Shown here: one piece after another, positions 3,963 to 24,790 of the stretch | Position numbering within the stretch: position 1 is the first letter of the stretch | How the letters are laid out: every line of letters starts with the position of its first letter | Assembly (NCBI GenBank): GCA_902557965.1 | Contig: CACECK010000001.1 | Location: 22,939 to 86,938 of the forward strand | From: an uncultured SAR86 cluster bacterium | GTDB taxonomy: Bacteria; Pseudomonadota; Gammaproteobacteria; Magnimaribacterales; D2472 | Direction of reading: 5' to 3' | Length of the DNA: 64,000 nucleotides | The notes under the pieces: model-generated | What the model saw: only the letters and a program-made list of their open reading frames with translations | What the model was told of the DNA's origin: nothing | Database searches by the model: none | Translations under genes and position numbers: made by a program

Positions 3963-3993
3963 AGTTTTATTCTACAGTAAACTCAGTAAGCTT

Positions 3994-4926
3994 ATGAATA
4001 AAGCAAAATTTCTCTTACTTTTTTTATTTATGCAAGTTAATCATTTAAATAGTCAGCTAGCTATTGGGAGCATTGAAGAATTTTTTATCGAGCATAATGC
4101 ATACGATAGAAGAATTCAGATTTACTATCCTTTTAGTAATCAAATTGATAAAAATACAAAATTTGTAATCATGAATGATGCTGAAGAACTCTTTTTAGAA
4201 GAAGATACTTGGCGAGGAAGGTCATGGAGAATTGATAAGACTTTTGAGGATTTAGCAAAGACTAATAAAAGTTTAAACATAGTAGTCATTGCTGTAAATA
4301 GTGCTAAAAAGCCAGGAAAAATTTTAAATAGTACTCGGCGCTACGCTGATTATTTTCCAAATGAATCTATTCTCTACTTTCAAGATGGCTTAAAAAAAGC
4401 TATCTATTCCGCTTTTATTGACCAAGAGAATCTCAATTATCCTAAGTTCTTAGCATCATCTTTGATACCAGAAATAGAGAAGAAGCTAAAAATAAAATTA
4501 AACAAAAACAACCTCGGTGTTATTGGGTCTAGCATGGGCGGATTATCGGCATTGAATACAGTGCTTGAATATCCAGAACTTTTTGGCTTTGCTGGCTGCT
4601 TGTCAACTCATTGGATAGGCATAAAGCCTTTTGAATATCTTACATTGCCATTGAGAAAAAAAATAAGCGCCGATGAAGATACTGTTAACGCAATTAAAAG
4701 GTATGTAGAGATTAATATTCATAAACTAAAAGATCACAAAATATATTTTGATCATGGAACCCGAGGATTAGACTACTTATACAGAGATCCTCAAATCAAC
4801 ATAAATAAAGTTTTTGAAGAAAATGATATTTTATTTAAAAGTGAGGTTTATAAAGGTCATGAACATGATCCAGTGGATTTCGGTAAAAGATTTAAGTCTA
4901 TTATCCTATATATGCTTGAAAGCTGA
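3994..4926 (+). CDS. secreted alpha/beta hydrolase, putative esterase family
   Basis: GSSMGG nucleophile elbow. A signal-like N-terminus (MNKAKFLLLFLFMQVNHLNS) follows the internal ATG at 3994, which I prefer over the track start at 3955. Confidence 0.7.
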   Translation: MNKAKFLLLFLFMQVNHLNSQLAIGSIEEFFIEHNAYDRRIQIYYPFSNQIDKNTKFVIMNDAEELFLEEDTWRGRSWRIDKTFEDLAKTNKSLNIVVIAVNSAKKPGKILNSTRRYADYFPNESILYFQDGLKKAIYSAFIDQENLNYPKFLASSLIPEIEKKLKIKLNKNNLGVIGSSMGGLSALNTVLEYPELFGFAGCLSTHWIGIKPFEYLTLPLRKKISADEDTVNAIKRYVEINIHKLKDHKIYFDHGTRGLDYLYRDPQININKVFEENDILFKSEVYKGHEHDPVDFGKRFKSIILYMLES

Positions 4927-7083: not shown

Positions 7084-7964
7084 TATGATTTTTTACCAAA
7101 TTTAAATAAGCCTCGAACAAATGGAAGAATCCATATTATTTTTAAAAAGTTTCTTGGGAAGAGTCTGCTCATCAAATCATAAAAGTGGGCATCAATTCCG
7201 ATAAGTATTCTTTTATTTTTCTTTTTAATATTTTTTAGAATTACTTTTGCAGCATGTTCTGGGCTCGTGGGAGCATTATGTTTAAAGTTTATACCAGCCT
7301 CTTCTTTTGTTGCTGCATTAGCACCAAAAATAGCAGCACCTGCGTCGTCAGCTTCAAAGCTTTTAAATTTTGCAGACGAGTATATGTTTGTTCCAATGTG
7401 GCCAGGGAAAACACAATACACCTCTACTGGTGAATCTGAAACTTCCATCTCAAGTGCCAAAGATTCTGTAAATGCCTTAACTCCAAACTTGCCAACATTA
7501 TAAATGGATTGTTTAGGCACACTAAAGAGACCAAAAATTGAAGAAGTGTTAATAATTGCAGCCTCGGGTCTTTTTTCTAATAATGGTAAAAATACTGTGG
7601 TCATTTGGATAACTGAGTTCAAAAGAATGTCCAGCCCAAAATTCCAATCACCCTCATCAACTTCTTTTACTGATCCAACAATTGAAAGCCCTGCATTATT
7701 AAAAACCATGTCTATTTGGTTATGATGTGACATTACTTGGTTTGGCAAGTTGCTAACTTTTTCCCTGTTACTGATGTCAAAAGCATGAGTTGAAACAGCG
7801 ACATTTTTCTTTTCCAGCAATAACTTTGTTTCTGCTAATGAATCTGCATTCCAATCTACAAGAGCCAAGCTGCAGCCACTATCAGCTAACTCAACAGCCA
7901 AAGCTCTGCCAATCCCGGAACCTGCTCCGGTGATTAAGGCTACTTTTTCTTTAAAATCCTTCAA
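7083..7964 (-). CDS. SDR family oxidoreductase
   Basis: TGAGSGIGRA cofactor motif, NNAG, and the YNVGK catalytic YxxxK. Confidence 0.9.
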   Translation of the reverse strand: MKDFKEKVALITGAGSGIGRALAVELADSGCSLALVDWNADSLAETKLLLEKKNVAVSTHAFDISNREKVSNLPNQVMSHHNQIDMVFNNAGLSIVGSVKEVDEGDWNFGLDILLNSVIQMTTVFLPLLEKRPEAAIINTSSIFGLFSVPKQSIYNVGKFGVKAFTESLALEMEVSDSPVEVYCVFPGHIGTNIYSSAKFKSFEADDAGAAIFGANAATKEEAGINFKHNAPTSPEHAAKVILKNIKKKNKRILIGIDAHFYDLMSRLFPRNFLKIIWILPFVRGLFKFGKKS

Positions 7965-9951: not shown

Positions 9952-10320
9952 TTATTCAGTCACGATTCCAATTTTAAGTCTCGCAATGGCGTTTCTTTCA
10001 TCTGAATCATTTAATGACCATGAACTATTTAATAGTCTTGTTGAGTATTGCTTGTTATATAAGAAAGGCATTATTAATTGAAAAAGGCCAAATGTGACCA
10101 AAGAAAAAATTAAATGGAATACACCAATTGATATTTCTCCTCTAAAAATAGGAACAAAGAAGCCAAAGAAAAAATAAGTCCAAGAGTACCCAACAAAACA
10201 ATTTTTTTGAATACCTGATTCATTATGCTTAACTTTAATTTTCTTTTGCCATCCAAGGACAAGGGTGCCAATTATCATAGGAGAAAAAATAAGAAGTAAA
10301 ATTGAAAATGTTAATGCCAA
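9952..10320 (-). CDS. hypothetical membrane protein
   Basis: 122 aa with 3 predicted TM segments. No confident family. Confidence 0.6.
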   Translation of the reverse strand: MALTFSILLLIFSPMIIGTLVLGWQKKIKVKHNESGIQKNCFVGYSWTYFFFGFFVPIFRGEISIGVFHLIFSLVTFGLFQLIMPFLYNKQYSTRLLNSSWSLNDSDERNAIARLKIGIVTE

Positions 10321-10401
10321 TGCTCACTCCTGCAAGCTCTGCCTTTAAAATTATTACAATTTGTAAAAACTGAAACGACTGGTTCTTTTATATTCATAAT
10401 T

Positions 10402-10812
10402 TTATGACTCTTTATTTGGATCCCATATCACCAAGTTTTTGGTTTTTAGTCTATTTACAACTAACTTGTATCTTGATTGCTCTTCCTTCCATTCCTTTAA
10501 CCATGTTGCGCCGTCTCTCTCTGCATCAACAAAGACTGCATTGGTAAATGCTAAGGGTAATATTACTGCAACGTGAATCGCTATACTTGCCACGGTATTA
10601 TAGTTAAAGAGCCCTAGATAGTTTGCTGCCAGAAATCCAAAGAACACACTCCATATAGTAAACAAAACTAACATAAAGTATGTCTGTAAACTTGGATCAG
10701 GTATGTGCCTTAGTGGATTATATCTAACGTCCATTACTCTTCTCCAGCCACTTACAAGTTTCATAACAGTTCTTCTGAATAAACTAGGTTTTTTTGTATT
10801 TGGTTCAATCAT
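10402..10812 (-). CDS. hypothetical membrane protein
   Basis: 136 aa. AGGAGG lies 4 nt upstream of the ATG. Two central TM segments. Confidence 0.65.
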   Translation of the reverse strand: MIEPNTKKPSLFRRTVMKLVSGWRRVMDVRYNPLRHIPDPSLQTYFMLVLFTIWSVFFGFLAANYLGLFNYNTVASIAIHVAVILPLAFTNAVFVDAERDGATWLKEWKEEQSRYKLVVNRLKTKNLVIWDPNKES

Positions 10813-10984: not shown

Positions 10985-11671
10985 TCATCGCCTTAATAGT
11001 ATAGCGATCCAACGACCAAGATTTAAAATATCAGCTAACGCTGCCGACACATAAGTGAGGGCTGCTGCTCTAAGAATGCGACTAACGGCTTTTTCGTTTG
11101 ACTGTGACACGTATTTCCCTTCCCTCAATATAGGAAGTGCTTTAGAAAAACTTGCATCAAATTCAATAGGTAAAGTTACCACATGAATCATCATGCGAGC
11201 TATAAAACCGGATAGCCCTAGAAAAAGTAATAAAGAAAATGGCATTGGATGTCGGGTAATAATACCAATCACTGGGGATAAAGAAATAATTGCTACACTC
11301 CAACGGGCCACTTTATCAACAACGGGAGCCATCTTTGTTCTGGTTGCCAGACGTTTATCACCTTGCTGATCCTGAATCGCATGTCCAACCTCATGAGCCG
11401 CGATAGCGATTGCGGTTAATGATTTAGATTCATAATGCTCTCGCAAAAGCCTAACTTTTTTTTCAATTGGATCATAGTGATCTCCTAGCTCAGTTACTTC
11501 GACCTCAACGTCTTTTAAAGAAAATCGCTCAATCAAGTGCTGTGCTAGCTCTCCGCCAGTACCTGGGATTTCAGGCTTTTCCAATGAATACCTCTTCATG
11601 ACCAACTTTACCCACAAAGATGGTCCAAATATTAGTGCTAAAACTACGAGCAAGCCCGCTGCTAAAAACAT
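10985..11671 (-). CDS. zinc metallopeptidase (membrane-associated, HExxH)
   Basis: 228 aa. HEVGHAIQ zinc motif. N-terminal TM and C-terminal TM segments, as in the putative neutral zinc metallopeptidase family. Confidence 0.8.
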   Translation of the reverse strand: MFLAAGLLVVLALIFGPSLWVKLVMKRYSLEKPEIPGTGGELAQHLIERFSLKDVEVEVTELGDHYDPIEKKVRLLREHYESKSLTAIAIAAHEVGHAIQDQQGDKRLATRTKMAPVVDKVARWSVAIISLSPVIGIITRHPMPFSLLLFLGLSGFIARMMIHVVTLPIEFDASFSKALPILREGKYVSQSNEKAVSRILRAAALTYVSAALADILNLGRWIAILLRR

Positions 11672-11691
11672 ATTTTATCCTCTTAAAAAAG

Positions 11692-11847
11692 TTATTCTTC
11701 TGATTTTATCTTTCTTAGATTCATCAAGGAAGCTGTTGCCAATATGACAAGCAATGAAATACCAAACTGCTTTTCATCAACAATTGAAACAACAAGGATT
11801 GCTGCTGCCCACATTATCGATTGAGAAATTAACAACTTTTTATTCAT
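11692..11847 (-). CDS. candidate 51-aa membrane protein
   Basis: Hand translation: MNKKLLISQSIMWAAAILVVSIVDEKQFGISLLVILATASLMNLRKIKSEE. Its ATG overlaps the stop of the upstream ORF (ATGA). Confidence 0.4.
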   Translation of the reverse strand: MNKKLLISQSIMWAAAILVVSIVDEKQFGISLLVILATASLMNLRKIKSEE

Positions 11848-12044
11848 TTATAATATTTTAATAAAACGTAATTGGCTATTAAGTCTAAAAAAATAAACCC
11901 TCCTAGTATCAACCACATAAATTCACCGCTATATACAGTAATTGTTAAAACTACAATAATTCCTATGACAAAAGCACGGATCCAAGAGTATTTTTTATAA
12001 AGTTTACTTTGAGTCCAAAAAAATTCTTTTAAAAAAATCGGCAT
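11844..12044 (-). CDS. 66-aa membrane protein
   Basis: Track ORF with two TM segments. It starts immediately after the repeat copy at 12051-12107. Confidence 0.5.
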   Translation of the reverse strand: MPIFLKEFFWTQSKLYKKYSWIRAFVIGIIVVLTITVYSGEFMWLILGGFIFLDLIANYVLLKYYK

Positions 12045-12050
12045 TATTTA

Positions 12051-12107
12051 TTTAAATCTCTGTTTTCTTCTACTCCACCGCCACTGATTAGTTTTAAAGA
12101 GTGATTT
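12051..12107 (-). repeat. glmS-3'-end-like repeat, copy 4 (core 12070-12087)
   Basis: The core ctactccaccgccactga reads tca gtg gcg gtg gag tag (SVAVE-stop) on the minus strand. Class-A flank aaatctctgttttctt at 12054-12069. Confidence 0.6.
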
Positions 12108-12480
12108 ACATATCTAGCAATGGATTTCTTCCCCATTTATTTTCATCTTCTTTTGCTGGAAGCATTAGTATAATTGAAATTACGAATAGCCCAATAATTG
12201 TAATGTAGGATAATTGCCACCATCCAGAAATACCTCTATCTTGAAGTCTTCTTGAGGTTATTGATGTAGCCGGAATAATAACTACGATTTGAAAAAGCGC
12301 TGAAAGTGGTCCATAACCAAATTCTTCACTAAATATTCCTGCCGGTGTTTCAAGCAATGCTAAAAAGAATGATATCAGAGATATAGAAAGTGTAAAATAC
12401 CAAAACTCGCTTCTGCATGCTCTTCCGCTAAAATTTTTCCAGTTTATAAAACCTGAAATAAATGATTCTTTAATATTCAT
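12106..12480 (-). CDS. DUF805 family inner-membrane protein (paralog 2)
   Basis: GRACRSEFWYF and SRRLQDRGISGWW motifs. The ATG at 12480 overlaps the upstream stop (ATGA), so I prefer it over the track start at 12498. Confidence 0.85.
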   Translation of the reverse strand: MNIKESFISGFINWKNFSGRACRSEFWYFTLSISLISFFLALLETPAGIFSEEFGYGPLSALFQIVVIIPATSITSRRLQDRGISGWWQLSYITIIGLFVISIILMLPAKEDENKWGRNPLLDM

Positions 12481-12902
12481 AGTGGATTTCTTCCCCATTT
12501 ATTTTCATCTTCCTTTGATGGCAGCATTAGAAAAATGAAAATTACAAAAATCCCAATAATAGTGAAATAAGATAATTGCCACCATCCTGAGATTCCTCTG
12601 TCTTGAAGTCTTCTGGAGGTTACAGATATAGAAGGAAATAAAATAATTGCATTAAATATTAAGGTTAATGGTCCAATAGGATTTCGTACACTTTGCCATT
12701 CTTTATCTCTAAACTCTATTCCATAGGAAAGTATAGTTGGAAAACCCTCAATGGATGCATAAAGAATTGCTTCGATAAAACTAATCAAAAAACCTGCAAT
12801 AAATAATGCTAAGCAAAAATACCAGAACTCACTTCTACGTGCCCTTCCACTGAAATTATTCCAATTATTAAAAACTGATATGCATGCCTCTTTTATGCTC
12901 AT
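12477..12902 (-). CDS. DUF805 family inner-membrane protein (paralog 1)
   Basis: GRARRSEFWYF and SRRLQDRGISGWW. The C-terminal ~55 aa are near-identical to the downstream paralog. Confidence 0.85.
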   Translation of the reverse strand: MSIKEACISVFNNWNNFSGRARRSEFWYFCLALFIAGFLISFIEAILYASIEGFPTILSYGIEFRDKEWQSVRNPIGPLTLIFNAIILFPSISVTSRRLQDRGISGWWQLSYFTIIGIFVIFIFLMLPSKEDENKWGRNPL

Positions 12903-13006
12903 AATTTTTTTAATTATTTATTGTGAAATCAAATTATATACTTTAGAAAAACACATATTGGTTTTTTAAGGTTCTAATCTATATAAGATTTGTATATTTT
13001 TAAAAG

Positions 13007-13099
13007 TTAGAAATCACTGTTCGAAACTACTCCACCGTCATTGAGTGTTTTCGTTTGCAGAATAAATTTCTTGTAGAAATTTATATATTTTTTGTCCAT
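13007..13099 (-). CDS. candidate 30-aa ORF embedded in the long repeat (MDKKYINFYKKFILQTKTLNDGGVVSNSDF)
   Basis: Conserved against the ORF at 14646-14744. Most nucleotide differences in the first 13 codons fall at third positions. No SD. Confidence 0.25.
   Translation of the reverse strand: MDKKYINFYKKFILQTKTLNDGGVVSNSDF
13011..13099 (-). repeat. glmS-3'-end-like repeat, long copy (core 13027-13044)
   Basis: 89 bp, with 74/89 identity (hand alignment) to 14656-14744. The core reads tca atg acg gtg gag tag (SMTVE-stop) on the minus strand. Confidence 0.8.
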
Positions 13100-13189
13100 A
13101 TAAAAAATTATACAATGATTTTAATTGTAACCTTTACTTCTCATATAATTAATGATAAGTTTACGTTACATTTTAGTGAGGAGAAGAAA

Positions 13190-13585
13190 ATGGGTCTTGA
13201 AATATTAATACCGGTATTAGGAATAATGACAGGAATAATAGTGCCTGTATCTGTCTTTGTTTGGTTATATTTTGAGAGCAAGGATAAAAACAAAACAATA
13301 TTAGAGATATCGAAAAATATTGATGATCCTTCAAAAATTGAAGACTTAATAAACATGCTTGACGATAGAAAAAAAGAACCAATTGATTATAGAAGAACTG
13401 GGGTTGTTACATTATTTACTGGTGTGGGTCTGTTTCTATTTGGTGTATTTTTTCTTGGATCAATCTTAAAAGGGGTTGGTGCATTGGTTGCTGCTATTGG
13501 TTTAGGACAAATAATTGCTGGTTATCTTTATCCGAACACAAGTGAAGAATTAACAAATGCTGTTGAAGATTTTGAAAAAAAATAG
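13190..13585 (+). CDS. 131-aa membrane protein
   Basis: Internal ATG preceded by GAGGAG (gtgaggagaagaaaATG). One N-terminal and two C-terminal TM segments. Ends in NAVEDFEKK. The track start at 13055 runs through the repeat and is unlikely. Confidence 0.6.
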   Translation: MGLEILIPVLGIMTGIIVPVSVFVWLYFESKDKNKTILEISKNIDDPSKIEDLINMLDDRKKEPIDYRRTGVVTLFTGVGLFLFGVFFLGSILKGVGALVAAIGLGQIIAGYLYPNTSEELTNAVEDFEKK

Positions 13586-13592
13586 GAGGGGG

Positions 13593-13802
13593 ATGATGAT
13601 CTATAAAAGAAATTTGGTTGTACATGTGGGTCTTTTAATAAGTTTACTAGGCATTGCCTTATATGATCCTTTGGGATCGATATATGAAGGTGCAGGATTG
13701 ATAGTTTTAGTAATTGGGTTAATTTGTTTGTTTGTTGGTAATAAAAATACAACTGAGTACGAATCAATTAATAGAGCAGTTGAAAACTTCGAAAAGAAAT
13801 AA
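13593..13802 (+). CDS. 69-aa two-TM membrane protein
   Basis: ATG preceded by AGGAGGGGG. Ends in RAVENFEKK, the same tail as the upstream protein. Confidence 0.6.
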   Translation: MMIYKRNLVVHVGLLISLLGIALYDPLGSIYEGAGLIVLVIGLICLFVGNKNTTEYESINRAVENFEKK

Positions 13803-13823
13803 GTTTGAGGAAATGAAATAACT

Positions 13824-14249
13824 ATGAATTTTTACATACGTTTTTTAATGTTATTTTTATGTGGAGTCGTGCAAGTCTTTTTTGCAATTCATCTTTTATT
13901 GGATTTAGGTATATTTCAACTTCCATCTGATCTAATGTTCATACCTGGGGTACTTATAATTTTAACTTCGATCGTTTTGGTATTATCTTATTACTATGGT
14001 AACGAAGAGATAAATAATAAACTTTATGACGAATATGCAGCAGATAGATTTTATAGATTAGGGAATTTAGGATACGCACTTAATGGCATAGGTTTATTTA
14101 TAATATTTAGCATTCAAGATTACCAAAACTGGGATATCCAAATCGCATCAAATATGATTTTACAAATTGCTGCTTATGCTTGGTTAGTTTTTGGAGTACT
14201 TTTAACATGGTTTGCGATTGGAGATTATCAAGAGTCCCAGCATGGGTAA
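13824..14249 (+). CDS. 141-aa four-TM membrane protein
   Basis: Track ORF with hydrophobic segments. Overlaps the start of the XRE gene by 8 nt. Confidence 0.6.
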   Translation: MNFYIRFLMLFLCGVVQVFFAIHLLLDLGIFQLPSDLMFIPGVLIILTSIVLVLSYYYGNEEINNKLYDEYAADRFYRLGNLGYALNGIGLFIIFSIQDYQNWDIQIASNMILQIAAYAWLVFGVLLTWFAIGDYQESQHG

Positions 14250-14460
14250 AAATCATTACAAACTTCTAAACAATCTTGAGCAATACAGAAAAAAAGCAGG
14301 TCTGACTCAACAAGAACTTTCAAATAACGCAGATGTTTCAAGGAAAAGTATCAATGCTATTGAAAATGGGATTTACGTGCCCTCAACTGTTCTAGCATTA
14401 AAAATATCAAAGATTTTTAATTGTAAAGTTGAAGATTTATTTGAACTGCCTAAGAATTAA
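14242..14460 (+). CDS. XRE family helix-turn-helix transcriptional regulator (72 aa)
   Basis: GLTQQELSNNADVSRKSINAIENGIYVPSTVLALKISKIFNCKVEDLF is a classic short Cro/C1-type HTH. This type is commonly encoded next to small membrane proteins. Confidence 0.85.
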   Translation: MGKNHYKLLNNLEQYRKKAGLTQQELSNNADVSRKSINAIENGIYVPSTVLALKISKIFNCKVEDLFELPKN

Positions 14461-14510
14461 TTCTGCAAACGAAACTATTCAACCGTCACTGAGTAGATTT
14501 GTTTGGTGCA
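14449..14510 (-). repeat. glmS-3'-end-like repeat, copy 2 (core 14475-14492) with class-B flank
   Basis: The core ctattcaaccgtcactga reads tca gtg acg gtt gaa tag (SVTVE-stop). The flank cctaagaattaattc (14449-14463) matches cctatgaattaattc next to the genuine glmS end. Confidence 0.6.
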
Positions 14511-14512
14511 TT

Positions 14513-14641
14513 TTATTCTTCCTTGTAATCGTCTGCGAGAATCCCCTTTTCTTTTAAAGTCTTTGTAAGTTTTTCTAGACGCACAAGTGCAACCACTCCG
14601 ACCATTCCAAACACAAAACCCATTACTGCCAACCCTTCCAT
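14513..14641 (-). CDS. candidate 42-aa single-TM protein
   Basis: Hand translation: MEGLAVMGFVFGMVGVVALVRLEKLTKTLKEKGILADDYKEE. AAGGA lies 9 nt upstream of the ATG. It fills the 0.2-kb cassette between two repeat copies. Confidence 0.45.
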   Translation of the reverse strand: MEGLAVMGFVFGMVGVVALVRLEKLTKTLKEKGILADDYKEE

Positions 14642-14645
14642 AATT

Positions 14646-14744
14646 CTATCCTTTTAAATCACTGTTCCAACTTACTCCACCGTCACCGAGTGTTTTCGAG
14701 TGACGAATAAATTTGTTATAAAAAGTAATATATTTTTTATCCAT
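14646..14744 (-). CDS. candidate 32-aa ORF embedded in the long repeat (MDKKYITFYNKFIRHSKTLGDGGVSWNSDLKG)
   Basis: Paralogous to the ORF at 13007-13099. Its ATG overlaps the stop of the 130-aa ORF (gATGGATAA). Confidence 0.25.
   Translation of the reverse strand: MDKKYITFYNKFIRHSKTLGDGGVSWNSDLKG
14656..14744 (-). repeat. glmS-3'-end-like repeat, long copy (core 14672-14689)
   Basis: 89 bp, with 74/89 identity to 13011-13099. The core reads tcg gtg acg gtg gag taa (SVTVE-stop). Confidence 0.8.
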
Positions 14745-15129
14745 CTAATTTATTTCTATTTTTCGGCAAGCAGAATATTAAAGTGATGATAAATGAAATT
14801 ATGGAAATTGGCATAGTAAATGCTAAGACATACATGGTTGTCTCAACCAATTGTGATGCTGTTCCATCAATCACATCATCAAATCTCCATGCCCAAGATC
14901 TATAGTGTAGACAGAAAGCAAACCCCCAAGCACCGCACAGAATACCTATAGCACTTGAGTCCTTGATAGTTAAATAACCTGCGGTTATTAGTAAGGCAAC
15001 GGCAATTAAGTCAGGTAAATATCCAGTAATTGTTTGTCCAAACTTTATCGTAAATAAGGTCTCGAGTGTAAAGTGAATAAGGGCAATAAAAATAGTAAAA
15101 ATAGAAAATTTATAAAGAAATGCTTTCAT
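14737..15129 (-). CDS. 130-aa four-TM membrane protein
   Basis: Track ORF. It is the first cassette downstream of glmS, and its start lies 27 nt after the glmS stop. Confidence 0.6.
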   Translation of the reverse strand: MKAFLYKFSIFTIFIALIHFTLETLFTIKFGQTITGYLPDLIAVALLITAGYLTIKDSSAIGILCGAWGFAFCLHYRSWAWRFDDVIDGTASQLVETTMYVLAFTMPISIISFIITLIFCLPKNRNKLDG

Positions 15130-15155
15130 ATCCTATGAATTAATTCGTCACCGAA

Positions 15156-16982
15156 TTATTCCACAGTGACTGATTTAGCTAAATTTCTTGGCTGATCAAT
15201 ATCAGTGCCTCTAAGAAGAGCTACCTCATATGAAAGAATTTGAAGGGGTATCGTATAAATTATTGGCGTTAGTAGAAAGTCGCATTTTGGCATATTTATC
15301 AGTTTTCCTGATTTAAGATCCATGGATATTGATGGATCTGAAAAGACATATAGAGTTCCACCTCTGGCTTTTACTTCCTCTAAATTTGAAACAAGTTTTT
15401 CAGCTATCTCACTTTCTGGAGCTAATGCTATTACAGGCATATTCTCATCTATTAATGCCAGTGGACCATGTTTTAATTCTCCAGCTGGATATGCTTCAGC
15501 ATGAATATAGGAAATCTCTTTCAGCTTTAATGCCCCCTCTTTTGCAATTGGATAAAAAATACCCCTTCCAAGGAATAAAGCATTATCTTTGTTAGCTATT
15601 TCTGGTGCTATTTCCAGTATCGTATCTTTAATTTTTAGAGTTTCTTCAATAGTATCTGGCAATGATCTCATTGCGGTTATAACTCTTGTTCTTAGTTTGG
15701 GGTTCATGTTTCTACTTTTTGCAAGAGATAAAGCTAGAAGCATTAGTGCAGCTAATTGCGTTGTGAATGCCTTTGTAGAAGCAACACCGATTTCAGGACC
15801 AGCATTCGTGAAAATTGAATAGTCTGATTCTCTTGCCAGTGAACTGGTAGGCACATTACAGATTGTTAAAGTTGATAAGTAATTTTTTTCTTTTGCGTAT
15901 CTTAATGCTGCAAGAGTGTCAGCTGTTTCACCTGATTGAGAAATGGTTATTAGCAAGGAGTCTTCATCGACATGAGGGTTTCTATAGCGATATTCAGACG
16001 CATAATCTATTTGAGTCGGTAGTTCTGAGATAGAAGAAAACCAATTTGCGGCAACTCTGCCTGCGTGCAAACTTGTTCCACAGGCTACGACTTGGATCCT
16101 TTTTACATTCTTAAAAATATCAGAAGAGCCAAGGCCAAAAATATTATCTAGTACATCGTCACCCCCGACCCTGCCATCAATAGTATTTAATATTGCTTGC
16201 GGCTGTTCATAAATTTCTTTCTCCATGAAATGCTTAAATTTACCTTTTGAGATTGCCTGGTCAGATATGTCTATCTTAGTGATCTCTCTTGAAGCTTCTT
16301 TTTTATTGCTGTCGTAAATAGTAAAGCCCTCTGCAGAAATTTGTGCAACATCACCATCTTCAAGAAAAATAAACTCATTGGTTAGCTGTCCAATTGCTAA
16401 AGGGTCTGATGCGGCAAGAAACTCATCTGTTCCAATCCCAATCAACAGCGGTGATTTATTTCTTGCAAGTACAATATTTGAATTGTCCTCTTTATCGACT
16501 ACTGCAATGGCATATGCGCCATCAAGTTTTTCTTTTGTGAGGTACATGGAATCAATTATTGAGTTACCTTTGCTAAGAAAAAAATCTAACATGTGAGCTA
16601 TTAGCTCAGAGTCTGTCTGGGATGTAAAAGAGTAGCCTTCAGTCTTCAAATAATCTTTAAGCTCTATATAGTTTTCAATAATTCCATTGTGAACGATATA
16701 AACCCTGTCTTTTGATTGGTGTGGGTGGGCATTTTCTTCAGACGGTTCCCCATGAGTTGCCCATCTAGTGTGAGCTATGCCGAGCTTACTTTTTGGCTTC
16801 TCTTGAATCATCTTATCCTCAAGTAACTTTACTTTTCCTAAAGTTCTGAGATGGGCTATCTGTTTATTTTGATGAAGCGCTATACCCGCAGAGTCGTATC
16901 CTCGATACTCCATTTTATGAAGTCCTTGAACAAGAAGCTTTCCAACATTTCTATTTGAAGCAGCAGCTATAATTCCACACAT
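15156..16982 (-). CDS. glmS: glutamine--fructose-6-phosphate aminotransferase
   Basis: 608 aa. N-terminal MCGI (catalytic Cys2), SIS domains, C-terminal AKSVTVE. Confidence 0.97.
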   Translation of the reverse strand: MCGIIAAASNRNVGKLLVQGLHKMEYRGYDSAGIALHQNKQIAHLRTLGKVKLLEDKMIQEKPKSKLGIAHTRWATHGEPSEENAHPHQSKDRVYIVHNGIIENYIELKDYLKTEGYSFTSQTDSELIAHMLDFFLSKGNSIIDSMYLTKEKLDGAYAIAVVDKEDNSNIVLARNKSPLLIGIGTDEFLAASDPLAIGQLTNEFIFLEDGDVAQISAEGFTIYDSNKKEASREITKIDISDQAISKGKFKHFMEKEIYEQPQAILNTIDGRVGGDDVLDNIFGLGSSDIFKNVKRIQVVACGTSLHAGRVAANWFSSISELPTQIDYASEYRYRNPHVDEDSLLITISQSGETADTLAALRYAKEKNYLSTLTICNVPTSSLARESDYSIFTNAGPEIGVASTKAFTTQLAALMLLALSLAKSRNMNPKLRTRVITAMRSLPDTIEETLKIKDTILEIAPEIANKDNALFLGRGIFYPIAKEGALKLKEISYIHAEAYPAGELKHGPLALIDENMPVIALAPESEIAEKLVSNLEEVKARGGTLYVFSDPSISMDLKSGKLINMPKCDFLLTPIIYTIPLQILSYEVALLRGTDIDQPRNLAKSVTVE

Positions 16983-16987
16983 ATTCT

Positions 16988-18343
16988 TTAATCCTTCTTT
17001 TTAGACCAGTTTTCTTTATTGCTTTGCTTGGCTCTTCCAAGGCCCAAGGCATTATCTGGAACATCTTTTGTGATTACTGATCCAGCTGCAACAGTTACAT
17101 TTGAGCCAATGGTTACTGGGGCAACAAGTGCAGAGTTGCTACCTATGAAGCTTTCATTCCCAATAGCAGTTTTATGCTTATCTTTTCCGTCATAATTGCA
17201 AGTAATAGTGCCTGCTCCAACATTAGTATTTTTGCCAATATTAGTATCACCTAAGTAAGTTAAGTGATTAGCTTTTGACCCCTCGCCAAGAACAATATTT
17301 TTTGTTTCAACAAAGTTGCCAACTTTTGCAGCTGCTTCTATTTGGCTACCCTCTCTTAATCTTGCATAAGGACCAACAACACATCCCTCGCCAACTTTTG
17401 CACCATCAATATGACAGAAGGCATCGATTTTTGAATTGCTTTCTATAGAGGTATTTTTGATAACACAATTTGGTCCGATTGAAACATTATCTCCAAGTTC
17501 AACATTTCCTTCTAAAATTACATTCACATCAATTGAGCAATCTTTTCCAGAAGTAACCTCTCCTCTAACATCAAGTCTAGATGGGTCTGAAACAGTAATT
17601 CCCATATCTAATATATCTTGAGCCTTCATTTCTCTAAAAATTCCCTCCAGTTCAGCAAGTTCTCTATGAGAGTTTGCCCCCTTCACTTCGTCATTTGAAG
17701 CTACATATGTGTTTATTTTAATACCTTTGTTACTCATTATAGAAACTATATCGGTTAAGTAAAATTCTCCAGCCGCATTATCATCTTTAATTTCTAACAA
17801 ACCTTCTTTTAAAAAATCTGTTCGTGCGCAAAGAACACCTGTAAATATTTCATTAATATTTTTTTCATCTTCAGTTGCGTCTTTTTCTTCAATGATTGCT
17901 ATTGCGTTTCCATCTTTGTCTTTACTTACTCTGCCATATCCAAATGGCTTGTCTAAAACAGTCGTTAATATTGATATACCATTATTAGAACTATCGATCA
18001 GCTCTTTAAGCGTATTTTCTTTAATAAGAGGTACATCTCCATATAAAACAAGTACTTTATCTGCTTCTGTTACTTCATCGATACCACATTTAACAGCATC
18101 ACCAGTTCCCTTTGGTTTTGGCTGTTCGCATGAAGTAATATCAAGGTTGAAATTCTTGGATTTGTCTAAAATTGATTCTTTGTCAAAACCAACAATGAGC
18201 GTTATTTTCTTGCTTATCTTGCCAGCCGTTTGGCAAATCATCTCAAGCATAGTCTTCCCGCCAATCCTTTGCAGGGACTTTGCTTTGTTTGATTTCATTC
18301 TAGAGCCCTCTCCTGCTGCTAGAACTATGGTGTGTACGTTCAC
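16988..18343 (-). CDS. glmU: bifunctional UDP-N-acetylglucosamine diphosphorylase / glucosamine-1-phosphate N-acetyltransferase
   Basis: 451 aa. LAAGEGSRMKS nucleotidyltransferase motif and a C-terminal left-handed beta-helix hexapeptide region. Confidence 0.97.
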   Translation of the reverse strand: MNVHTIVLAAGEGSRMKSNKAKSLQRIGGKTMLEMICQTAGKISKKITLIVGFDKESILDKSKNFNLDITSCEQPKPKGTGDAVKCGIDEVTEADKVLVLYGDVPLIKENTLKELIDSSNNGISILTTVLDKPFGYGRVSKDKDGNAIAIIEEKDATEDEKNINEIFTGVLCARTDFLKEGLLEIKDDNAAGEFYLTDIVSIMSNKGIKINTYVASNDEVKGANSHRELAELEGIFREMKAQDILDMGITVSDPSRLDVRGEVTSGKDCSIDVNVILEGNVELGDNVSIGPNCVIKNTSIESNSKIDAFCHIDGAKVGEGCVVGPYARLREGSQIEAAAKVGNFVETKNIVLGEGSKANHLTYLGDTNIGKNTNVGAGTITCNYDGKDKHKTAIGNESFIGSNSALVAPVTIGSNVTVAAGSVITKDVPDNALGLGRAKQSNKENWSKKKD

Positions 18344-18369
18344 TATTTATTTAAGGTTAAATAGATACC

Positions 18370-18783
18370 TTACTGTTTTTTGCGAAGTTTTTGAATAGTT
18401 TTCAACCTGGCAACAGCTTCAGCAAGCTGCGCTGATGCTTTGGCATAGTCAATAGAAGTATCTTTATTTGAAAGTTCTTTCTCAGCGATCTCTTTTGCTT
18501 TAATAGCCTCAGACTCATCAAGACTCTCAGCTCTTTCTGCTGTATCTGACAAAACAGTGACTAGGTCTGGTTGAACTTCTAAGAATCCTCCCGAACAGAA
18601 AAAAGCCTCTTCTTCGTTGCCGTTTTGAACTCTAACTGGCCCAGGAGCTAATCCAGTTAGTAGCGGGGTGTGTCCAGGTGCAATACCGAGTTCACCCAAG
18701 GTTCCAGTGGCAAAGACCATGGTTGCTTCTCCAGAGTAGATTTCTTCACTGGAAGACACTATGTTAATTTTAATAGTACTCAT
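18370..18783 (-). CDS. atpC: F0F1 ATP synthase subunit epsilon
   Basis: 137 aa. Position after atpD and typical epsilon sequence. Confidence 0.95.
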   Translation of the reverse strand: MSTIKINIVSSSEEIYSGEATMVFATGTLGELGIAPGHTPLLTGLAPGPVRVQNGNEEEAFFCSGGFLEVQPDLVTVLSDTAERAESLDESEAIKAKEIAEKELSNKDTSIDYAKASAQLAEAVARLKTIQKLRKKQ

Positions 18784-18785
18784 TT

Positions 18786-21057
<2,272 letters not shown>

Positions 21058-21066
21058 TATTCTTAA

Positions 21067-22611
21067 TTAAAAAGTTTGTGTCTTCTTAAAGTCTTCAACA
21101 AGAGATTTGAACTGAGCTTCAATGTCATCGTTCCAGTCGCCTGTAGAATTAATTTGTTCCTCAAGATCACCTTTTTCAGAAGTTAAATACCCATGCAGTG
21201 CTTTTTCAAAATCAAGAATCTTTTCAACTTCAACGTCAGCCATGTATCCTCTGTCAGCAGCAAACAAGCTTATCGCCTGCTGCGCTACACTCATTGGTGC
21301 ATATTGCTTTTGTTTTAAAAGCTCAGTAAAAGCTTTACCACTTGCCAGCTGTTGTTTTGTAGCATCATCTAGGTCGGATGCAAACTGTGAAAAGGCAGCT
21401 AACTCTCGATACTGAGCTAATGCTGTTCTTACTCCACCTGCTAATTTTTTCATTATTTTTGTCTGAGCTGAGCCACCAACTCTGGATACAGATAGTCCTG
21501 GGTTGATAGCAGGCCTTACGCCTGAATTAAATAACTCAGTTTCTAAATATATTTGACCGTCTGTGATTGATATTACATTGGTTGGAACAAAGGCTGATAC
21601 ATCACCAGCAAGTGTTTCAATAATCGGCAATGCAGTAAGTGAGCCAGTCTTTCCTTTTACTTTTCCGCCAGTAACCTGTTCTACGTAATCAGCATTTACT
21701 CTAGCCGCTCTCTCTAATAGCCTTGAGTGAAGGTAAAAAACATCACCAGGATAAGCCTCTCTTCCTGGAGGCCTTTTTAACAAAAGCGATACCTGTCTAT
21801 ATGCGACCGCTTGTTTTGAAAGATCATCATATACGATTAGCGCGTCTTCACCTTTATCTCTAAAGTATTCGCCCATAGTACATCCAGCATAAGCTGATAA
21901 GTATTGCATTGGAGCTGGATCAGCTGCTGTTGCTGAAACAACAATCGTATGTTCCATTGCTCCGTATTCTTCTAATTTTCTGACAACATTTGCTACGGTT
22001 GATTGTTTTTGGCCTATTGCAACATAGATGCATTTAATTCCAGTGCCTTTCTGATTAATTATTGCATCGATGGCTACAGCAGTTTTTCCTGTTTGTCTGT
22101 CACCAATAATAAGCTCTCTTTGACCTCTTCCAATTGGTACCATTGCATCAACAGACTTTAATCCAATTTGAACAGGTTGATCAACTGATTGACGAGCAAT
22201 AACACCAGGTGCAACAACCTCAACAGGTGAGGTATGCTCAGCACTTATTTCACCCTTTCCATCTATTGGGGTTCCTAAAGTGTTAACCACTCTTCCCAGC
22301 AAAGCCTCGCCAACAGGAACTTCTAGAACTTTGCCAGTACATACTGCTTTCTGGCCTTCAATTATTTCGAGGTAATCTCCAAGTACAACAGCACCAACAG
22401 AGTCCTGCTCAAGATTAAGAGCCATTCCTTTTGTGCCGTTTTCAAATTCGATAACCTCACCATACATAACATCTCCCATGCCATGAATTCTTACAATACC
22501 GTCAGATACACTAACGACAATGCCTTCGTTTTTTCTTTCCGCGGATAGATCTAAACCAGCAATCTTTTCTTTTAATACGCTGGAAATTTCTGATGGATTT
22601 AATTGGCTCAT
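21067..22611 (-). CDS. atpA: F0F1 ATP synthase subunit alpha
   Basis: 514 aa. GDRQTGKT Walker A. Confidence 0.97.
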
Positions 22612-22620
22612 ATTTTCACC

Positions 22621-23157
22621 TTAAAAATTTAATTGGTTTACAAGTTTTTTAACCTTTCCTCTTATGGAGAGATCAAGTGTTTCATCTCCTATCTTTATTG
22701 ATAGACCGCCCATCATTGATGGGTCTTTTGAAAAAAATATATTGGCGTCTTTGCCGTAAGTTGATTTTAGTTTTTGTTCTATATTGTCCTTGGCTTCTTT
22801 TCCAGGCTCTGCAGCAACAAAAACCTCTACTGACTTTTGTTCTTTGTGATGCTCTAATAGCTCTTGATAGATTGAATAGATGGTTTCAAGAAGATTTAAG
22901 CGTTTATTTTCAGCTAATATTTCTATAAGTTTTTTCGAGGTATCAGAAACGCTTGCCTCAAAAAGATTTGACAGAATGCTAATAACATCTTGCCTAGACA
23001 AAACAGGATTTTCTATTGTATTGATAACTTCCTCAGTTTTAGATGCCATTGCCATTATTTTTAAATCAACCGCCATTTCATCAATAGTATTTGACTCAAC
23101 AGCAGCAGAAAACAATGCTTTAGCATATGGTCTGGCTAGAGGAGTTAATTCAATCAT
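22621..23157 (-). CDS. atpH: F0F1 ATP synthase subunit delta
   Basis: 178 aa. ARPYAKALF N-terminus and operon position. Confidence 0.93.
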   Translation of the reverse strand: MIELTPLARPYAKALFSAAVESNTIDEMAVDLKIMAMASKTEEVINTIENPVLSRQDVISILSNLFEASVSDTSKKLIEILAENKRLNLLETIYSIYQELLEHHKEQKSVEVFVAAEPGKEAKDNIEQKLKSTYGKDANIFFSKDPSMMGGLSIKIGDETLDLSIRGKVKKLVNQLNF

Positions 23158-23160
23158 TAT

Positions 23161-23631
23161 TTATAATTCCTCAGCTGCTTTTTTGAGAATGTCTTCATGT
23201 TTCTCTTTTGAGATCTCATCGCCTAAGATTTTTTGAGTTGTATCAATAATAATGTCAGACATTTGTTGTCTTAACTCTTCTTTGGCTTTGTTGGTTTCAT
23301 TTTCAATAGTTGTTGCTGCAGAAGTTAATATCTTTTCTGCTTCTGCCTCTGCCTTAGATGAGGCATCTGTAACAATTTGAGATGCCCTTGCATTTGCTTT
23401 TTCTAAAATTTCAGCTGCTTCTGCTTTAGCCTGATTAAGCTCTTTATCAAAAGCTAGCTTTGCTTCTTCAAGAGAGTCATCAGCCTTCTTTGCAGCCTCG
23501 AGACCGTCTGAAATTCTTTTCTCTCTTTCTTTCATCATGGAGAGAATAGGTGGGTATACGTACTTCCAACATATTGCCACAAACACAATCATTACAACTG
23601 CTTGGGCAAGTAAGGTTGCGTTAATATTCAT
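23161..23631 (-). CDS. atpF: F0F1 ATP synthase subunit b
   Basis: 156 aa. One N-terminal TM then a long charged helix. Operon position. Confidence 0.93.
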   Translation of the reverse strand: MNINATLLAQAVVMIVFVAICWKYVYPPILSMMKEREKRISDGLEAAKKADDSLEEAKLAFDKELNQAKAEAAEILEKANARASQIVTDASSKAEAEAEKILTSAATTIENETNKAKEELRQQMSDIIIDTTQKILGDEISKEKHEDILKKAAEEL

Positions 23632-23652
23632 ATCTTAATAATTGTGTTTAAT

Positions 23653-23886
<234 letters not shown>

Positions 23887-23899
23887 CTATAAGTGAGGA

Positions 23900-24790
<891 letters not shown>

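What the first reader, a model, noticed from the sequence alone, without database searches (positions are those of the whole stretch)
13007..14744. Two 89-bp long repeats share a conserved 30-32 codon ORF that runs across the glmS-like core
13011-13099 and 14656-14744 align without gaps at 74/89 identity (hand alignment). On the minus strand both open with ATG and encode:
- MDKKYINFYKKFILQTKTLNDGGVVSNSDF
- MDKKYITFYNKFIRHSKTLGDGGVSWNSDLKG

In the first 13 codons, 5 of 6 nucleotide differences fall at codon position 3. Four are synonymous (D, I, F, Y) and one is N/K. This looks like purifying selection on a peptide rather than only on a DNA site. A rough binomial chance estimate is about 0.02 before correcting for frames.

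The reading frame differs from the one that gives SVTVE-stop, so the same 18 nt is read two ways. A truncated relative follows the 14475 core region (ATG CAC CAA ACA AAT CTA CTC AGT GAC GGT TGA, MHQTNLLSDG).

The ORF could be a small element-encoded protein such as an excisionase-like factor. It could also be the remnant 5' end of a lost gene, or purely an arm-type DNA site.
Basis: seen in the sequence. Interest (0 to 1): 0.6.

Follow-up and report, generated by a model that had tools for sequence, protein, structure and literature searches.

The report
Mini-gene inside mobile cassette ends
The two repeats are the matching end-pieces of two small mobile gene cassettes stacked behind the glmS gene of a SAR86 marine bacterium, and each end-piece carries a conserved mini-gene of about 30 codons that overlaps the DNA site where a serine recombinase most likely joins the cassettes.

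Summary
In detail: 74/89 identity without gaps, both ORFs as written, and 5 of 6 early differences at codon position 3.

The repeats are the right-end modules of two integrase-less cassettes. These sit in a four-cassette tandem array at the 3' end of glmS. The same kind of array occurs in 30 related SAR86 genomes. There, related elements carry large serine recombinase (LSR) genes that end 20-50 nt from the same arm and core.

Each module has three parts:
- About 12 codons (22 in a longer class) evolve as protein.
  - Set 1: 37 substitution events, split 9/4/24 by codon position, permutation p=3e-4.
  - Set 2, independent: 72 events, split 19/6/47, p=3e-8.
  - The crude nonsynonymous/synonymous ratio is about 0.17, and no event creates a stop.
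- About 9 codons also serve as the recombinase half-site and left half-core. Here variation shows no wobble bias.
- The tail is supplied by whichever cassette lies downstream.

A profile search found 343 such ORFs in marine metagenomes, none listed longer than 89 aa and none with a known family. About 13% of copies are frameshifted.

The peptide's function is unproven. It may be an accessory peptide, a ribosome relay across the junction, or both.

The parts
14646..14744 (-). Mini-ORF copy D (32 codons plus stop), MDKKYITFYNKFIRHSKTLGDGGVSWNSDLKG. It is the right-end module of cassette Y.
   Evidence: Member of a 343-protein family.
13007..13099 (-). Mini-ORF copy B (30 codons plus stop), MDKKYINFYKKFILQTKTLNDGGVVSNSDF. 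It is the right-end module of cassette X.
   Evidence: Near-identical copies at the end of the same cassette in L010, L017 and L026, with different tails.
14709..14744 (-). First 12 codons of copy D. This part evolves as protein. The predicted amphipathic helix begins here.
   Evidence: Codon-position and synonymous excess in the homologous region of other copies. AlphaFold helix at residues 3-19.
13064..13099 (-). First 12 codons of copy B, the protein-constrained part.
14690..14708 (-). P arm of cassette Y (ATTCGTCACTCGAAAACAC). It is the inferred recombinase half-site and encodes I-R-H-S-K-T. It is the inverted repeat of the Y P' arm at 15137-15156, with one bulged base.
   Evidence: Seen directly in the sequence. 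Arm region shows no wobble bias.
13045..13063 (-). P arm of cassette X (ATTCTGCAAACGAAAACAC). It is the inverted repeat of the X P' arm at 14455-14475.
   Evidence: I1: 28 nt, 86% complementary; 19/20. The same arm follows the stop of the recombinase gene in L105, L139 and L090.
15157..15173 (-). Core at the real glmS 3' end (TCAGTCACTGTGGAATA, S-V-T-V-E-stop). This is the attL-like junction.
14673..14689 (-). Core D (TCGGTGACGGTGGAGTA), the junction between cassettes Y and Z.
14476..14492 (-). Core C (TCAGTGACGGTTGAATA), the junction between cassettes Z and X.
13028..13044 (-). Core B (TCAATGACGGTGGAGTA), the junction between cassette X and the DUF805 cassette.
12071..12087 (-). Core A (TCAGTGGCGGTGGAGTA), the last junction of the array.
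14690..15156 (-). Cassette Y: P' arm, a 130-aa membrane protein gene (14737-15129, no Pfam hit), then the mini-ORF and P arm.
   Evidence: The same cargo occurs with X-type arms in L001, L116 and metagenome contigs.
14493..14672 (-). Cassette Z, with a 42-aa ORF (14513-14641). Its two arms are only weakly complementary.
   Evidence: 92% identical copy in L011.
13045..14475 (+). Cassette X. Its cargo lies on the + strand: DUF6249 protein (13190-13585), two small membrane proteins (13557-13802, 13824-14249) and an XRE-type HTH_3 regulator (14212-14460). The mini-ORF diverges from this operon on the minus strand.
   Evidence: Found in L006, L009, L010, L017, L023 and L026 at different positions.
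12088..13027 (-). Cassette with two tandem DUF805 genes (12477-12902, 12106-12498). Arm complementarity is 15/20.
15156..16982 (-). glmS. Its last six codons are the attachment core.

Best explanation
The two 89-bp repeats are homologous right-end modules of two different integrase-less cassettes, Y and X. These belong to a tandem cassette array built by large-serine-recombinase (LSR) integration into the last codons of glmS in SAR86 bacteria.

Each module is a small gene with three zones:
1. ATG plus about 11 codons (about 21 in a longer class) under purifying selection for amino-acid sequence. They are predicted to form a short cationic, aromatic amphipathic helix.
2. About 9 codons that also serve as the LSR P half-site and the left half of the crossover core. 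These are constrained as DNA.
3. A C-terminal tail and stop codon supplied by whichever cassette or flank lies downstream. Every recombination event therefore rewrites the tail.

Shown:
- the repeats and ORFs;
- the family of copies;
- the coding-type substitution pattern;
- the cassette anatomy of direct cores plus cassette-specific inverted arms;
- LSR genes abutting the same arm and core in relatives.

Inferred:
- that the LSR is the enzyme acting on these sites, crossing over at the central AC of a ~56-bp dyad-symmetric attP;
- that the ORF is actually translated;
- what the peptide does.

My ranking of its role:
- about 30%: a sequence-specific peptide acting for the cassette, most plausibly on the LSR reaction or on cassette retention;
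- about 25%: some other peptide function, for example envelope-active like much of the cargo;
- about 25%: mainly a ribosome relay across the att junction, like integron ORF-11;
- about 20%: no present function.
For: Repeats, ORFs and frame.

Family: 9 copies in 30 SAR86 genome loci, always on the glmS strand and reading into a core. There are 343 profile hits (best E=1e-17) among 5.8e9 proteins. The 120 listed are 29-89 aa. All share the N-terminal ~21 aa and diverge after the core.

Coding signal:
- Arm-anchored set of 24 variants: 37 events, split 9/4/24 by codon position. In the ORF frame they are 17 synonymous, 20 nonsynonymous and 0 stop-creating. The other five frames give 4-10 synonymous and 1-16 stop-creating. 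Permutation p=3e-4.
- Independent long class of 13 variants: 72 events, split 19/6/47, p=3e-8, with 36 synonymous, 36 nonsynonymous and 0 stops.
- The arm and half-core codons of the same sequences show 7/2/2, so no wobble bias.
- Crude per-site nonsynonymous/synonymous ratio is 0.16-0.18.
- Start-codon variants are GTG and TTG.
- Length classes differ by 21 or 30-33 nt.
- Homology between cassettes with at least 12 different cargoes begins at the ATG.

Cassette system:
- 80 cores in 31 loci, all at or downstream of the glmS end and all in one orientation.
- A cassette's own two arms are inverted repeats (at least 15/20) in 22/50 cassettes. The figure is 0/50 across junctions and 8% for random pairs.
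- Empty versus occupied site: L009 versus L010 share the same distal flank.
- LSR domains Resolvase plus Recombinase (plus Zn_ribbon_recom in L116 and L022) are found in L105 (identical gene in L139, near-identical in L090), L116, L022 and L291. The gene stops 20-50 nt before the arm and core in three lineages.

Structure: AlphaFold helix at residues 3-19, with pLDDT 83 over the first 10 residues.
Against: - No expression data exist.
- Most copies lack a Shine-Dalgarno sequence.
- 7 of 52 motif-bearing copies are frameshifted, and a few have lost the start (L115, L124).
- Only about 18% of cassettes in the genome sample carry the ORF, so it is not needed for cassette existence.
- Nine of the 13 long-class sequences were retrieved through protein hits. 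This biases toward intact, conserved ORFs, although it cannot create a 47:6 ratio of position 3 to position 2.
- The window itself has no LSR, and only 1 of 31 genome loci has one within 10 kb.
- The four LSR-bearing elements lack the ORF, which argues against an essential recombinase cofactor.
- The AlphaFold model has only moderate confidence (mean pLDDT 65).
- No recombination was observed directly.
Confidence: 0.72

Rival explanations
1. The ORF is a pure translational relay, like integron ORF-11/ORF-18. Ribosomes finishing the upstream cargo gene would re-initiate at the abutting ATG. They would then translate through the att junction and stop near the first gene of the next cassette, keeping it expressed. 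On this view the peptide itself does nothing.
For: - The ORF spans the crossover point and takes its stop from the downstream cassette, exactly as ORF-11/ORF-18 do (PMC8876359).
- Its ATG overlaps or abuts the upstream cargo stop: window copy D -8, L285 -8, L287 -4, L290 -1, L288 0, L291 +6.
- Its stop overlaps or abuts the next start: L288 -4, L289 -4, L287 +2, L291 +6, window copy D +5.
- Most copies have no Shine-Dalgarno sequence of their own.
Against: - The amino-acid sequence is under purifying selection, with ratio ~0.17 and invariant K4, F8, F12 and I13. By contrast, amino-acid changes in ORF-11 have little effect.
- In cassette X the ORF has no co-directional upstream gene.
- ATGA-type coupling to the next gene occurs for 11/70 gene families, and start-frame offsets are 15/27/28 (p=0.11). 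Neither is clearly above chance.
- Only 38/54 junctions have any ORF of at least 10 codons reading into the core.
Confidence: 0.25
2. The conserved 36 nt upstream of the arm is only a DNA-level site, such as an accessory protein-binding site, an outward promoter or an extended recombinase site. On this view the ORF is an accident of the one frame that stays open through the core.
For: - Only one frame can cross the core, so a shared frame is trivial.
- Fortuitous through-core ORFs exist: copy A, 12044-12136, starts inside a DUF805 gene, and MHQTNLLSDG at core C is another.
- About 13% of copies are frameshifted.
- The region is AT-rich with -10-like hexamers. Cassette X has TGTATAAT 7 nt upstream of the ATG.
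Against: - Three-base periodicity of substitutions (p=3e-4 and 3e-8) and a synonymous excess occur only in the ORF frame.
- No event creates a stop. Third-position changes at the Tyr codons are all T/C.
- The block of homology starts at the ATG.
- The recombinase-bearing elements L105 and L291 keep the arm without this block, so it is not needed for the site itself.
- A 7-bp dyad seen in one variant is broken without compensation in others.
- The promoter scan shows no excess over shuffles.
Confidence: 0.1
3. The ORF is the leftover 5' end of a longer gene. That gene was either split by integration and re-formed in the excised circle, or was lost.
For: - Recombination at the core does truncate and rewrite the reading frame.
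- Some database ORFs run 70-89 aa into the next cassette.
Against: - None of the 120 hits listed (of 343) is longer than 89 aa or has a Pfam domain.
- The reconstructed circle junction of cassette X gives only ...DGGVVSFAELILRQFK-stop, and that of Y gives ...DCGIIR-stop (tails of this kind).
- The long tails belong to particular downstream cassettes and are unrelated to each other.
- Coding-type variation has accumulated among copies that are all short.
Confidence: 0.04
4. The cassettes move as folded single-stranded hairpins, either integron attC-like or by an HUH/rolling-circle enzyme. The conserved core would sit in the loop, and the arm covariation would reflect base pairing.
For: - Arms differ between cassette types yet stay complementary within a cassette.
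- The same cargo (Y) occurs with two different but internally matched arm pairs.
Against: - LSR genes abut the arm and core in three lineages.
- A ~50-56-bp dyad-symmetric site with a central crossover is the standard anatomy of serine-recombinase att sites (PMC6222049).
- Related LSRs (59% identity) go with related arm types, which explains matched arms as two half-sites for the same dimer.
- The crossover lies in the middle of the site, not at the base of a stem.
- No IntI or HUH gene was noticed in the arrays. Only the longest ORFs were Pfam-scanned, so this point is weak.
Confidence: 0.05

Closest known systems
Staphylococcal / enterococcal cassette chromosome elements (SCC, SCCmec, ECC) moved by Ccr large serine recombinases
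   Same: - Integration into the 3' end of a conserved housekeeping gene (rlmH there, glmS here).
- About 50-bp direct repeats at each junction.
- Inverted repeats that give dyad symmetry in the excised att site.
- Highly variable cargo.
- Tandem composite arrays and recombinase-less cassettes (PMC6222049; composite and pseudo-SCC from general knowledge).
   Different: - The host (SAR86) and the target gene differ.
- Cassettes here are very small, 0.2-2 kb, with 1-4 genes.
- The LSRs were not tested for membership of the Ccr clade.
- No conserved mini-ORF overlapping the att half-site is described for SCC, to my knowledge.
Integron attI1 small ORFs (ORF-11, ORF-18, ORF-17) and short ORFs inside attC
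   Same: A short ORF spans the recombination crossover, and its stop codon is supplied by the inserted cassette. Its length therefore depends on the neighbour. It works by termination-reinitiation coupling (PMC8876359).
   Different: - Those peptides are regarded as non-functional, and amino-acid substitutions matter little. Here the first 12-22 codons are under clear purifying selection.
- The enzyme is a tyrosine recombinase acting on folded attC, not an LSR.
- The integron ORF sits in the platform (attI), not at the end of each cassette.
Tycheposon-driven genomic islands of Prochlorococcus
   Same: - Successive site-specific integrations at one conserved site push older elements outward.
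- They leave repeated partial att copies and integrase-less remnants.
- This occurs in a streamlined marine genome (bioRxiv 10.1101/2020.12.28.424599).
   Different: - Targets are tRNA genes.
- 910 of 937 of those elements use tyrosine recombinases.
- Elements are larger and often carry replication modules.
- No att-embedded mini-ORF is reported.
Recombination directionality factors of serine integrases (e.g. TP901-1 Orf7, SPbeta SprB; from general knowledge)
   Same: These are small, family-less proteins encoded close to attP or int. They act on the integrase.
   Different: - Known examples are about 58 aa or longer (from memory) and are encoded by the integrase-bearing element.
- The constant part here is 21-32 aa.
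- The ORF is absent from the four LSR-bearing elements seen.
Tn7-family insertion at attTn7 downstream of glmS
   Same: It uses the conserved glmS 3' end as a safe chromosomal landing site.
   Different: - Tn7 inserts downstream of the stop codon with a 5-bp duplication, by TnsABCD transposition.
- Here the crossover is inside the last codons.
- Each element brings a replacement S-V-T-V-E-stop core.
- The enzyme is a serine recombinase.

Membership tests
Protein-coding small ORF | Substitutions concentrated at codon position 3 and synonymous in one frame only | tested here: met
   Short class: 9/4/24 by codon position, 17 synonymous against 4-10 in the other frames, p=3e-4. Long class: 19/6/47, p=3e-8. 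Per-site ratio ~0.17.
Protein-coding small ORF | Start codon conserved or replaced by another start | tested here: met
   Start is ATG in 18 of 22 in-frame variants, with GTG (L097, 4 contigs) and TTG (L151). It is lost in L115 (ATT), and in L124 on a reading of the sequences. Three contigs use an ATG two codons upstream.
Protein-coding small ORF | Frame preserved (no frameshifts or stops; indels in multiples of three) | tested here: inconclusive
   Length classes differ by 21 and 30-33 nt, and L110 has an in-frame 21-nt deletion. However, 7 of 52 copies carry 1-2-nt shifts (L109, L111/L096, L121/L116 and others).
Protein-coding small ORF | Direct evidence of translation | not testable with these tools
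   No Ribo-seq, proteomic or transcript data were available.
LSR integrative element array (SCC-like) | Large serine recombinase (Resolvase + Recombinase + zinc-ribbon domains) encoded by members of the element family | tested here: met
   L105:4483-6198, L116:5077-6795, L022:16176-17831 and L291:1-1397. None is present in the window itself.
LSR integrative element array (SCC-like) | Insertion at one conserved chromosomal site with a direct repeat of the att core at every junction | tested here: met
   80 cores, all at or after the glmS stop and all in one orientation. Empty site in L009 versus occupied site in L010, sharing the same distal flank.
LSR integrative element array (SCC-like) | About 50-bp att site with dyad symmetry around a central crossover | tested here: met
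   Own-arm complementarity in 22/50 cassettes against 0/50 across junctions. Homology breaks after TGAC. The reconstructed X site is symmetric around AC.
LSR integrative element array (SCC-like) | Excision to a circle and re-integration catalysed by the recombinase | not testable with these tools
   Only inferred, from the same cassette lying in different neighbourhoods.
Recombination directionality factor / excisionase | Homology to a known Xis/RDF family | tested here: not met
   No Pfam domain on any hit. No PHROG or NCBIfam match at E<=1.
Recombination directionality factor / excisionase | Encoded by the integrase-bearing element | tested here: not met
   In L105 and L291 the arm follows the LSR stop directly, without the ORF. 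L116 and L022 likewise lack it.
Recombination directionality factor / excisionase | Changes the direction of recombination by binding the integrase | not testable with these tools
   Needs biochemistry.
att-spanning relay ORF (integron ORF-11 type) | ORF crosses the crossover point and receives its stop from the neighbouring cassette | tested here: met
   Tails differ after the core for identical heads.
att-spanning relay ORF (integron ORF-11 type) | Peptide sequence unimportant | tested here: not met
   Purifying selection on residues 2-13 or 2-22.
att-spanning relay ORF (integron ORF-11 type) | Coupled to the downstream start more often than chance | tested here: inconclusive
   11/70 ATGA overlaps; start-frame offsets 15/27/28, p=0.11.
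Lambda-type arm-type integrase-binding site | Tyrosine integrase with an arm-binding domain, and repeated arm sites evolving as DNA | tested here: not met
   The recombinases found are serine recombinases. The 36-nt block evolves with codon periodicity.

The most novel reading that the evidence does not exclude
The mini-ORF would encode the smallest known accessory factor of a large serine recombinase. It would be a 21-32-aa amphipathic helix that integrase-less cassettes use to exploit or restrain a helper recombinase. Its gene is written into the cassette's own att half-site, so it can never be separated from the site. Each recombination rewrites its C-terminus, giving different isoforms in the excised and integrated states.
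Probability: 0.12. Interest if true: 0.85.

Novelty: new variant of a known kind. Interest (0 to 1): 0.6.

Why it matters
SAR86 is one of the most abundant heterotrophic bacterial groups in the surface ocean, and its flexible genes are poorly explained. This finding gives a concrete and testable account of one such region.

- The island behind glmS appears to be a stack of tiny cassettes. They are most likely exchanged by large serine recombinases at a ~56-bp site whose core is the last six codons of glmS.
- I found no description of this system in the literature I could search.
- Within it, one family of cassette ends carries a mini-gene that overlaps the recombinase half-site. It is under clear protein-level selection, yet its tail changes with every rearrangement.
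- This dual-use arrangement resembles the integron ORF-11, except that here the peptide is selected.
- If the peptide acts on the recombinase, it would be a new kind of hitchhiker control element.
- The matched sets of recombinase, attP and attB would also be compact new parts for genome engineering.
- If the ORF only relays ribosomes, it extends to a serine-recombinase system a principle known from integrons.

Tried and rejected
- **Hairpin models.** I first read the matched but variable arms as evidence for a folded single-strand site (attC-like or HUH origin-like). I dropped this once LSR genes were found abutting the arm and core. Matched arms are then simply the two half-sites of one dimer.
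- **Integrase in the window.** Pfam scans of 27 ORFs downstream of glmS found none. tblastn of the LSRs against the window found nothing. The candidate 390-430-aa ORFs in the genome loci did not look like recombinases on reading their sequences, but they were not Pfam-scanned.
- **Viral contigs.** An arm-pair pattern gave 0 hits. The 15-mer core gave only chance coding matches.
- **Known families.** There was no Rfam match in 11500-15400 and no PHROG or NCBIfam match for the peptide.
- **Promoters and terminators.** The scan gave no excess over shuffles.
- **Exact look-up of window peptide D.** It is not on record.
- **Downstream translational coupling as a designed feature.** Not significantly enriched.
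- **General rule that translation must reach every core.** Only 38/54 junctions have an ORF of at least 10 codons reading into the core.
- **A 7-bp dyad (ATAAAAA/TTTTTAT) inside the first codons.** It is broken without compensation in other variants.
- **L291 reading corrected.** I initially read L291 as an LSR element carrying the mini-ORF. Reading the DNA showed a core between the LSR and the acetyltransferase cassette, so that claim was withdrawn.
- **Literature.** Searches on SAR86/glmS/island, LSR/glmS and tycheposons found no prior description.


Full report
**Observation.** Window 13011-13099 and 14656-14744 align without gaps at 74/89. The repeat finder gives 93 nt at 83%. In the first 13 codons, five of six differences are at codon position 3, and four of them are synonymous. 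The ORF frame is offset from the frame that reads S-V-T-V-E-stop. It is the only frame open through the core, because the other two hit TAA/TAG or TGA.

**Where it sits.** The window is from a SAR86-clade gammaproteobacterium. Its glmS (15156-16982, minus strand) is 73-94% identical to that of 30 SAR86 genomes. A 17-nt core resembling the last codons of glmS (consensus TCAGTGACGGTGGAGTA) occurs four more times downstream of glmS. These lie at 14673-14689, 14476-14492, 13028-13044 and 12071-12087, against none expected by chance. In the window and the 30 SAR86 loci there are 80 such cores. All are on the glmS strand and at or after the glmS stop, and none lies in the 10 kb upstream. Core variation falls mainly at the third positions of the S-V-T-V-E-stop codons. 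The variable region ends at a conserved Zn-peptidase gene (window 10985-11671). That gene lies 0.4 to 7.3 kb from glmS in different genomes. L009 shows an almost empty site. L010 has the same distal flank after its last core.

**Cassette anatomy.** Each segment between two cores begins with a right arm (P') and ends with a left arm (P), and these two are inverted repeats of each other. Own-arm complementarity reaches at least 15/20 in 22 of 50 cassettes. It does so in 0 of 50 pairs across a junction and in 8% of random pairs. Arm sequence differs between cassette types. The same cargo (Y) is found with two different but internally matched arm pairs. The same cassette X (DUF6249, two small membrane proteins, XRE-type HTH) occurs in six other genomes at different positions. 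Its homology to them breaks inside the core, after TGAC.

**The recombinase.** The window's array has none. In related contigs, however, large serine recombinase genes (Resolvase plus Recombinase, with a Zn-ribbon domain in two of them) lie inside the arrays. They are at L105:4483-6198 (identical gene in L139, near-identical in L090), L116:5077-6795, L022:16176-17831 and L291:1-1397. In three lineages the gene stops 20-50 nt before a P arm and core. L105 has exactly the arm of cassette X, and L291 has the arm of the long mini-ORF class. The reconstructed excised site of X is TTCTGCAAACGAAA-AC-ACTC-AATG-AC-GGTG-GAGT-AG-TTTCGTTTGCAGAA. It is about 56 bp and dyad-symmetric around a central AC, where the breakpoints map. 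This is the standard anatomy of serine-recombinase att sites (PMC6222049). It explains the matched arms as two half-sites for one dimer, without any hairpin. I therefore dropped my earlier attC-like and HUH ideas. That the LSR acts on these sites is an inference from adjacency and site anatomy.

**The mini-ORF family.** Nine copies occur in the 31 genome loci, always at the end of a cassette and reading into a core. A profile of these found 343 proteins in 5.8 billion (best E=1e-17). The 120 listed are 29-89 aa with no Pfam domain, and all are from marine metagenomes or SAR86 genomes. They share M[DE][KE]KYI[TNK]FYKKF + arm-encoded residues + (S/N)D and diverge after the core. In 82 aligned sequences K4, F8, F12 and I13 are invariant, and M1, Y5, I6 and Y9 are at least 90% conserved. 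A longer class carries an in-frame insertion of about 10-11 codons.

**Coding test on set 1.** Set 1 was retrieved by DNA, anchored only on the arm and left half-core, so it is blind to the first 12 codons. It comprises 82 metagenome contigs, pooled with the copies in the genome loci and the window. Among 24 distinct variants, parsimony gives 37 substitution events in codons 2-13, split 9/4/24 by codon position. In the ORF frame these are 17 synonymous, 20 nonsynonymous and none stop-creating. The other five frames give 4-10 synonymous and 1-16 stop-creating events. Permutation p=3e-4.

**Coding test on set 2.** Set 2 is the long class, with 13 variants from genome loci and look-ups. It gives 72 events in codons 2-22, split 19/6/47 (p=3e-8), with 36 synonymous, 36 nonsynonymous and no stops. 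The arm and half-core codons of the same sequences give 11 events split 7/2/2, so no wobble bias. The crude per-site nonsynonymous/synonymous ratio is 0.16-0.18. Start-codon variants include GTG and TTG. Homology between cassettes with at least a dozen different cargoes begins at the ATG. Against this, 7 of 52 motif-bearing copies are shifted by 1-2 nt, two have lost the start, and one is inverted. Set 2 also has some ascertainment bias. Overall, the head of the ORF evolves as protein, the middle as a recombinase site, and the tail is whatever lies downstream.

**Function.** AlphaFold on the 82-sequence alignment predicts one helix, residues 3-19, with pLDDT 83 over the first ten residues and falling after that. 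By inspection of the sequence, the aromatic residues fall on one face of that helix and the lysines on the other.

The ORF is tightly packed:
- Its ATG overlaps or abuts the upstream cargo stop in most co-directional cases.
- Its stop lies within a few nt of the next start in 4 of 5 annotated loci.

This matches the integron ORF-11/ORF-18 precedent (PMC8876359). But several points argue against a pure relay:
- Coupling to the next gene is not clearly above chance.
- Cassette X has no upstream co-directional gene.
- Peptide-level selection is not expected for a pure relay.

An excisionase or directionality role is not supported by homology. The recombinase-bearing elements also lack the ORF, and only about 18% of cassettes carry it. 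I therefore commit only to this: it is most likely a translated, selected small peptide belonging to the cassette end. Its role is ranked as in the best explanation.

**Comparison and novelty.** The array works like SCC/ECC cassette chromosomes (LSR, 3' end of a housekeeping gene, ~50-bp repeats, dyad symmetry, recombinase-less cassettes). It also resembles tycheposon islands in its accretion logic. I found no paper describing it in SAR86 or at glmS. The att-overlapping mini-gene under protein-level selection is a new variant of the att-spanning small ORF known from integrons.

Noticed in passing
window 12044-12136 (-): A third through-core ORF, MGKKSIARYVNHSLKLISGGGVEENRDLNK. Its ATG lies inside the 3' end of the DUF805 gene (12106-12498) in another frame. 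It shares only the core with the mini-ORF family and looks fortuitous.
   Followed up: partly
window 12106-12498 and 12477-12902 (-); repeats at 10313-10418, 12396-12501 and 12818-12923: Two tandem DUF805 paralogues form one cassette (155-nt repeat at 84%). A 106-nt repeat spanning their start regions has a third copy (71%) at 10313-10418, outside the array (D1/D2).
   Followed up: no
L014:14426-15523; L024:12460-13683: Some cargo genes run into the core and use it for their stop. One ends ...GYGYSVTVE-stop in the glmS frame. Another ends ...KSLFKLNQ-stop at the core's TGA.
   Followed up: partly
L093, around 3983-4100 (- strand of the locus): A tiny cassette of about 80 bp. Here the whole mini-ORF head plus arm is present in inverted orientation next to the upstream core, followed by a second bare arm and core. 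It may be an 'empty' or inverted module.
   Followed up: no
L105:365-952 and L116:4503-5087: A small serine recombinase (Resolvase + HTH) lies in the same elements as the large one. In L116 it is immediately upstream of the LSR gene. Its role (multimer resolution or inversion) is unknown.
   Followed up: no
L116:~7270-7345 and L121: Loss of one A in the A-run of codons 3-4 shifts the mini-ORF into the glmS frame. This gives MDKNILLFIRNLFCKRKHSVTVG-stop, which ends at the core's own stop codon.
   Followed up: no
window 13100-13125 (-): In cassette X an extended -10-like TGTATAAT lies 7 nt upstream of the mini-ORF ATG. It is conserved in L010, L017 and L026 and in metagenome copies, which suggests a leaderless transcript. 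The consensus promoter scan did not flag it.
   Followed up: partly
window 11692-11847 (-) and many loci: The 51-aa membrane protein MNKKLLISQSIMWAAAILVV... lies in the window's conserved distal flank. In other genomes it is the first gene of a cassette directly after a core, with ATGA overlap to the through-core frame.
   Followed up: no
window 16988-24790 (-): By gene order and ORF sizes this looks like an atp operon followed by glmU and then glmS on one strand. That is an ordinary arrangement as I recall it from E. coli, and it was not checked with Pfam.
   Followed up: no
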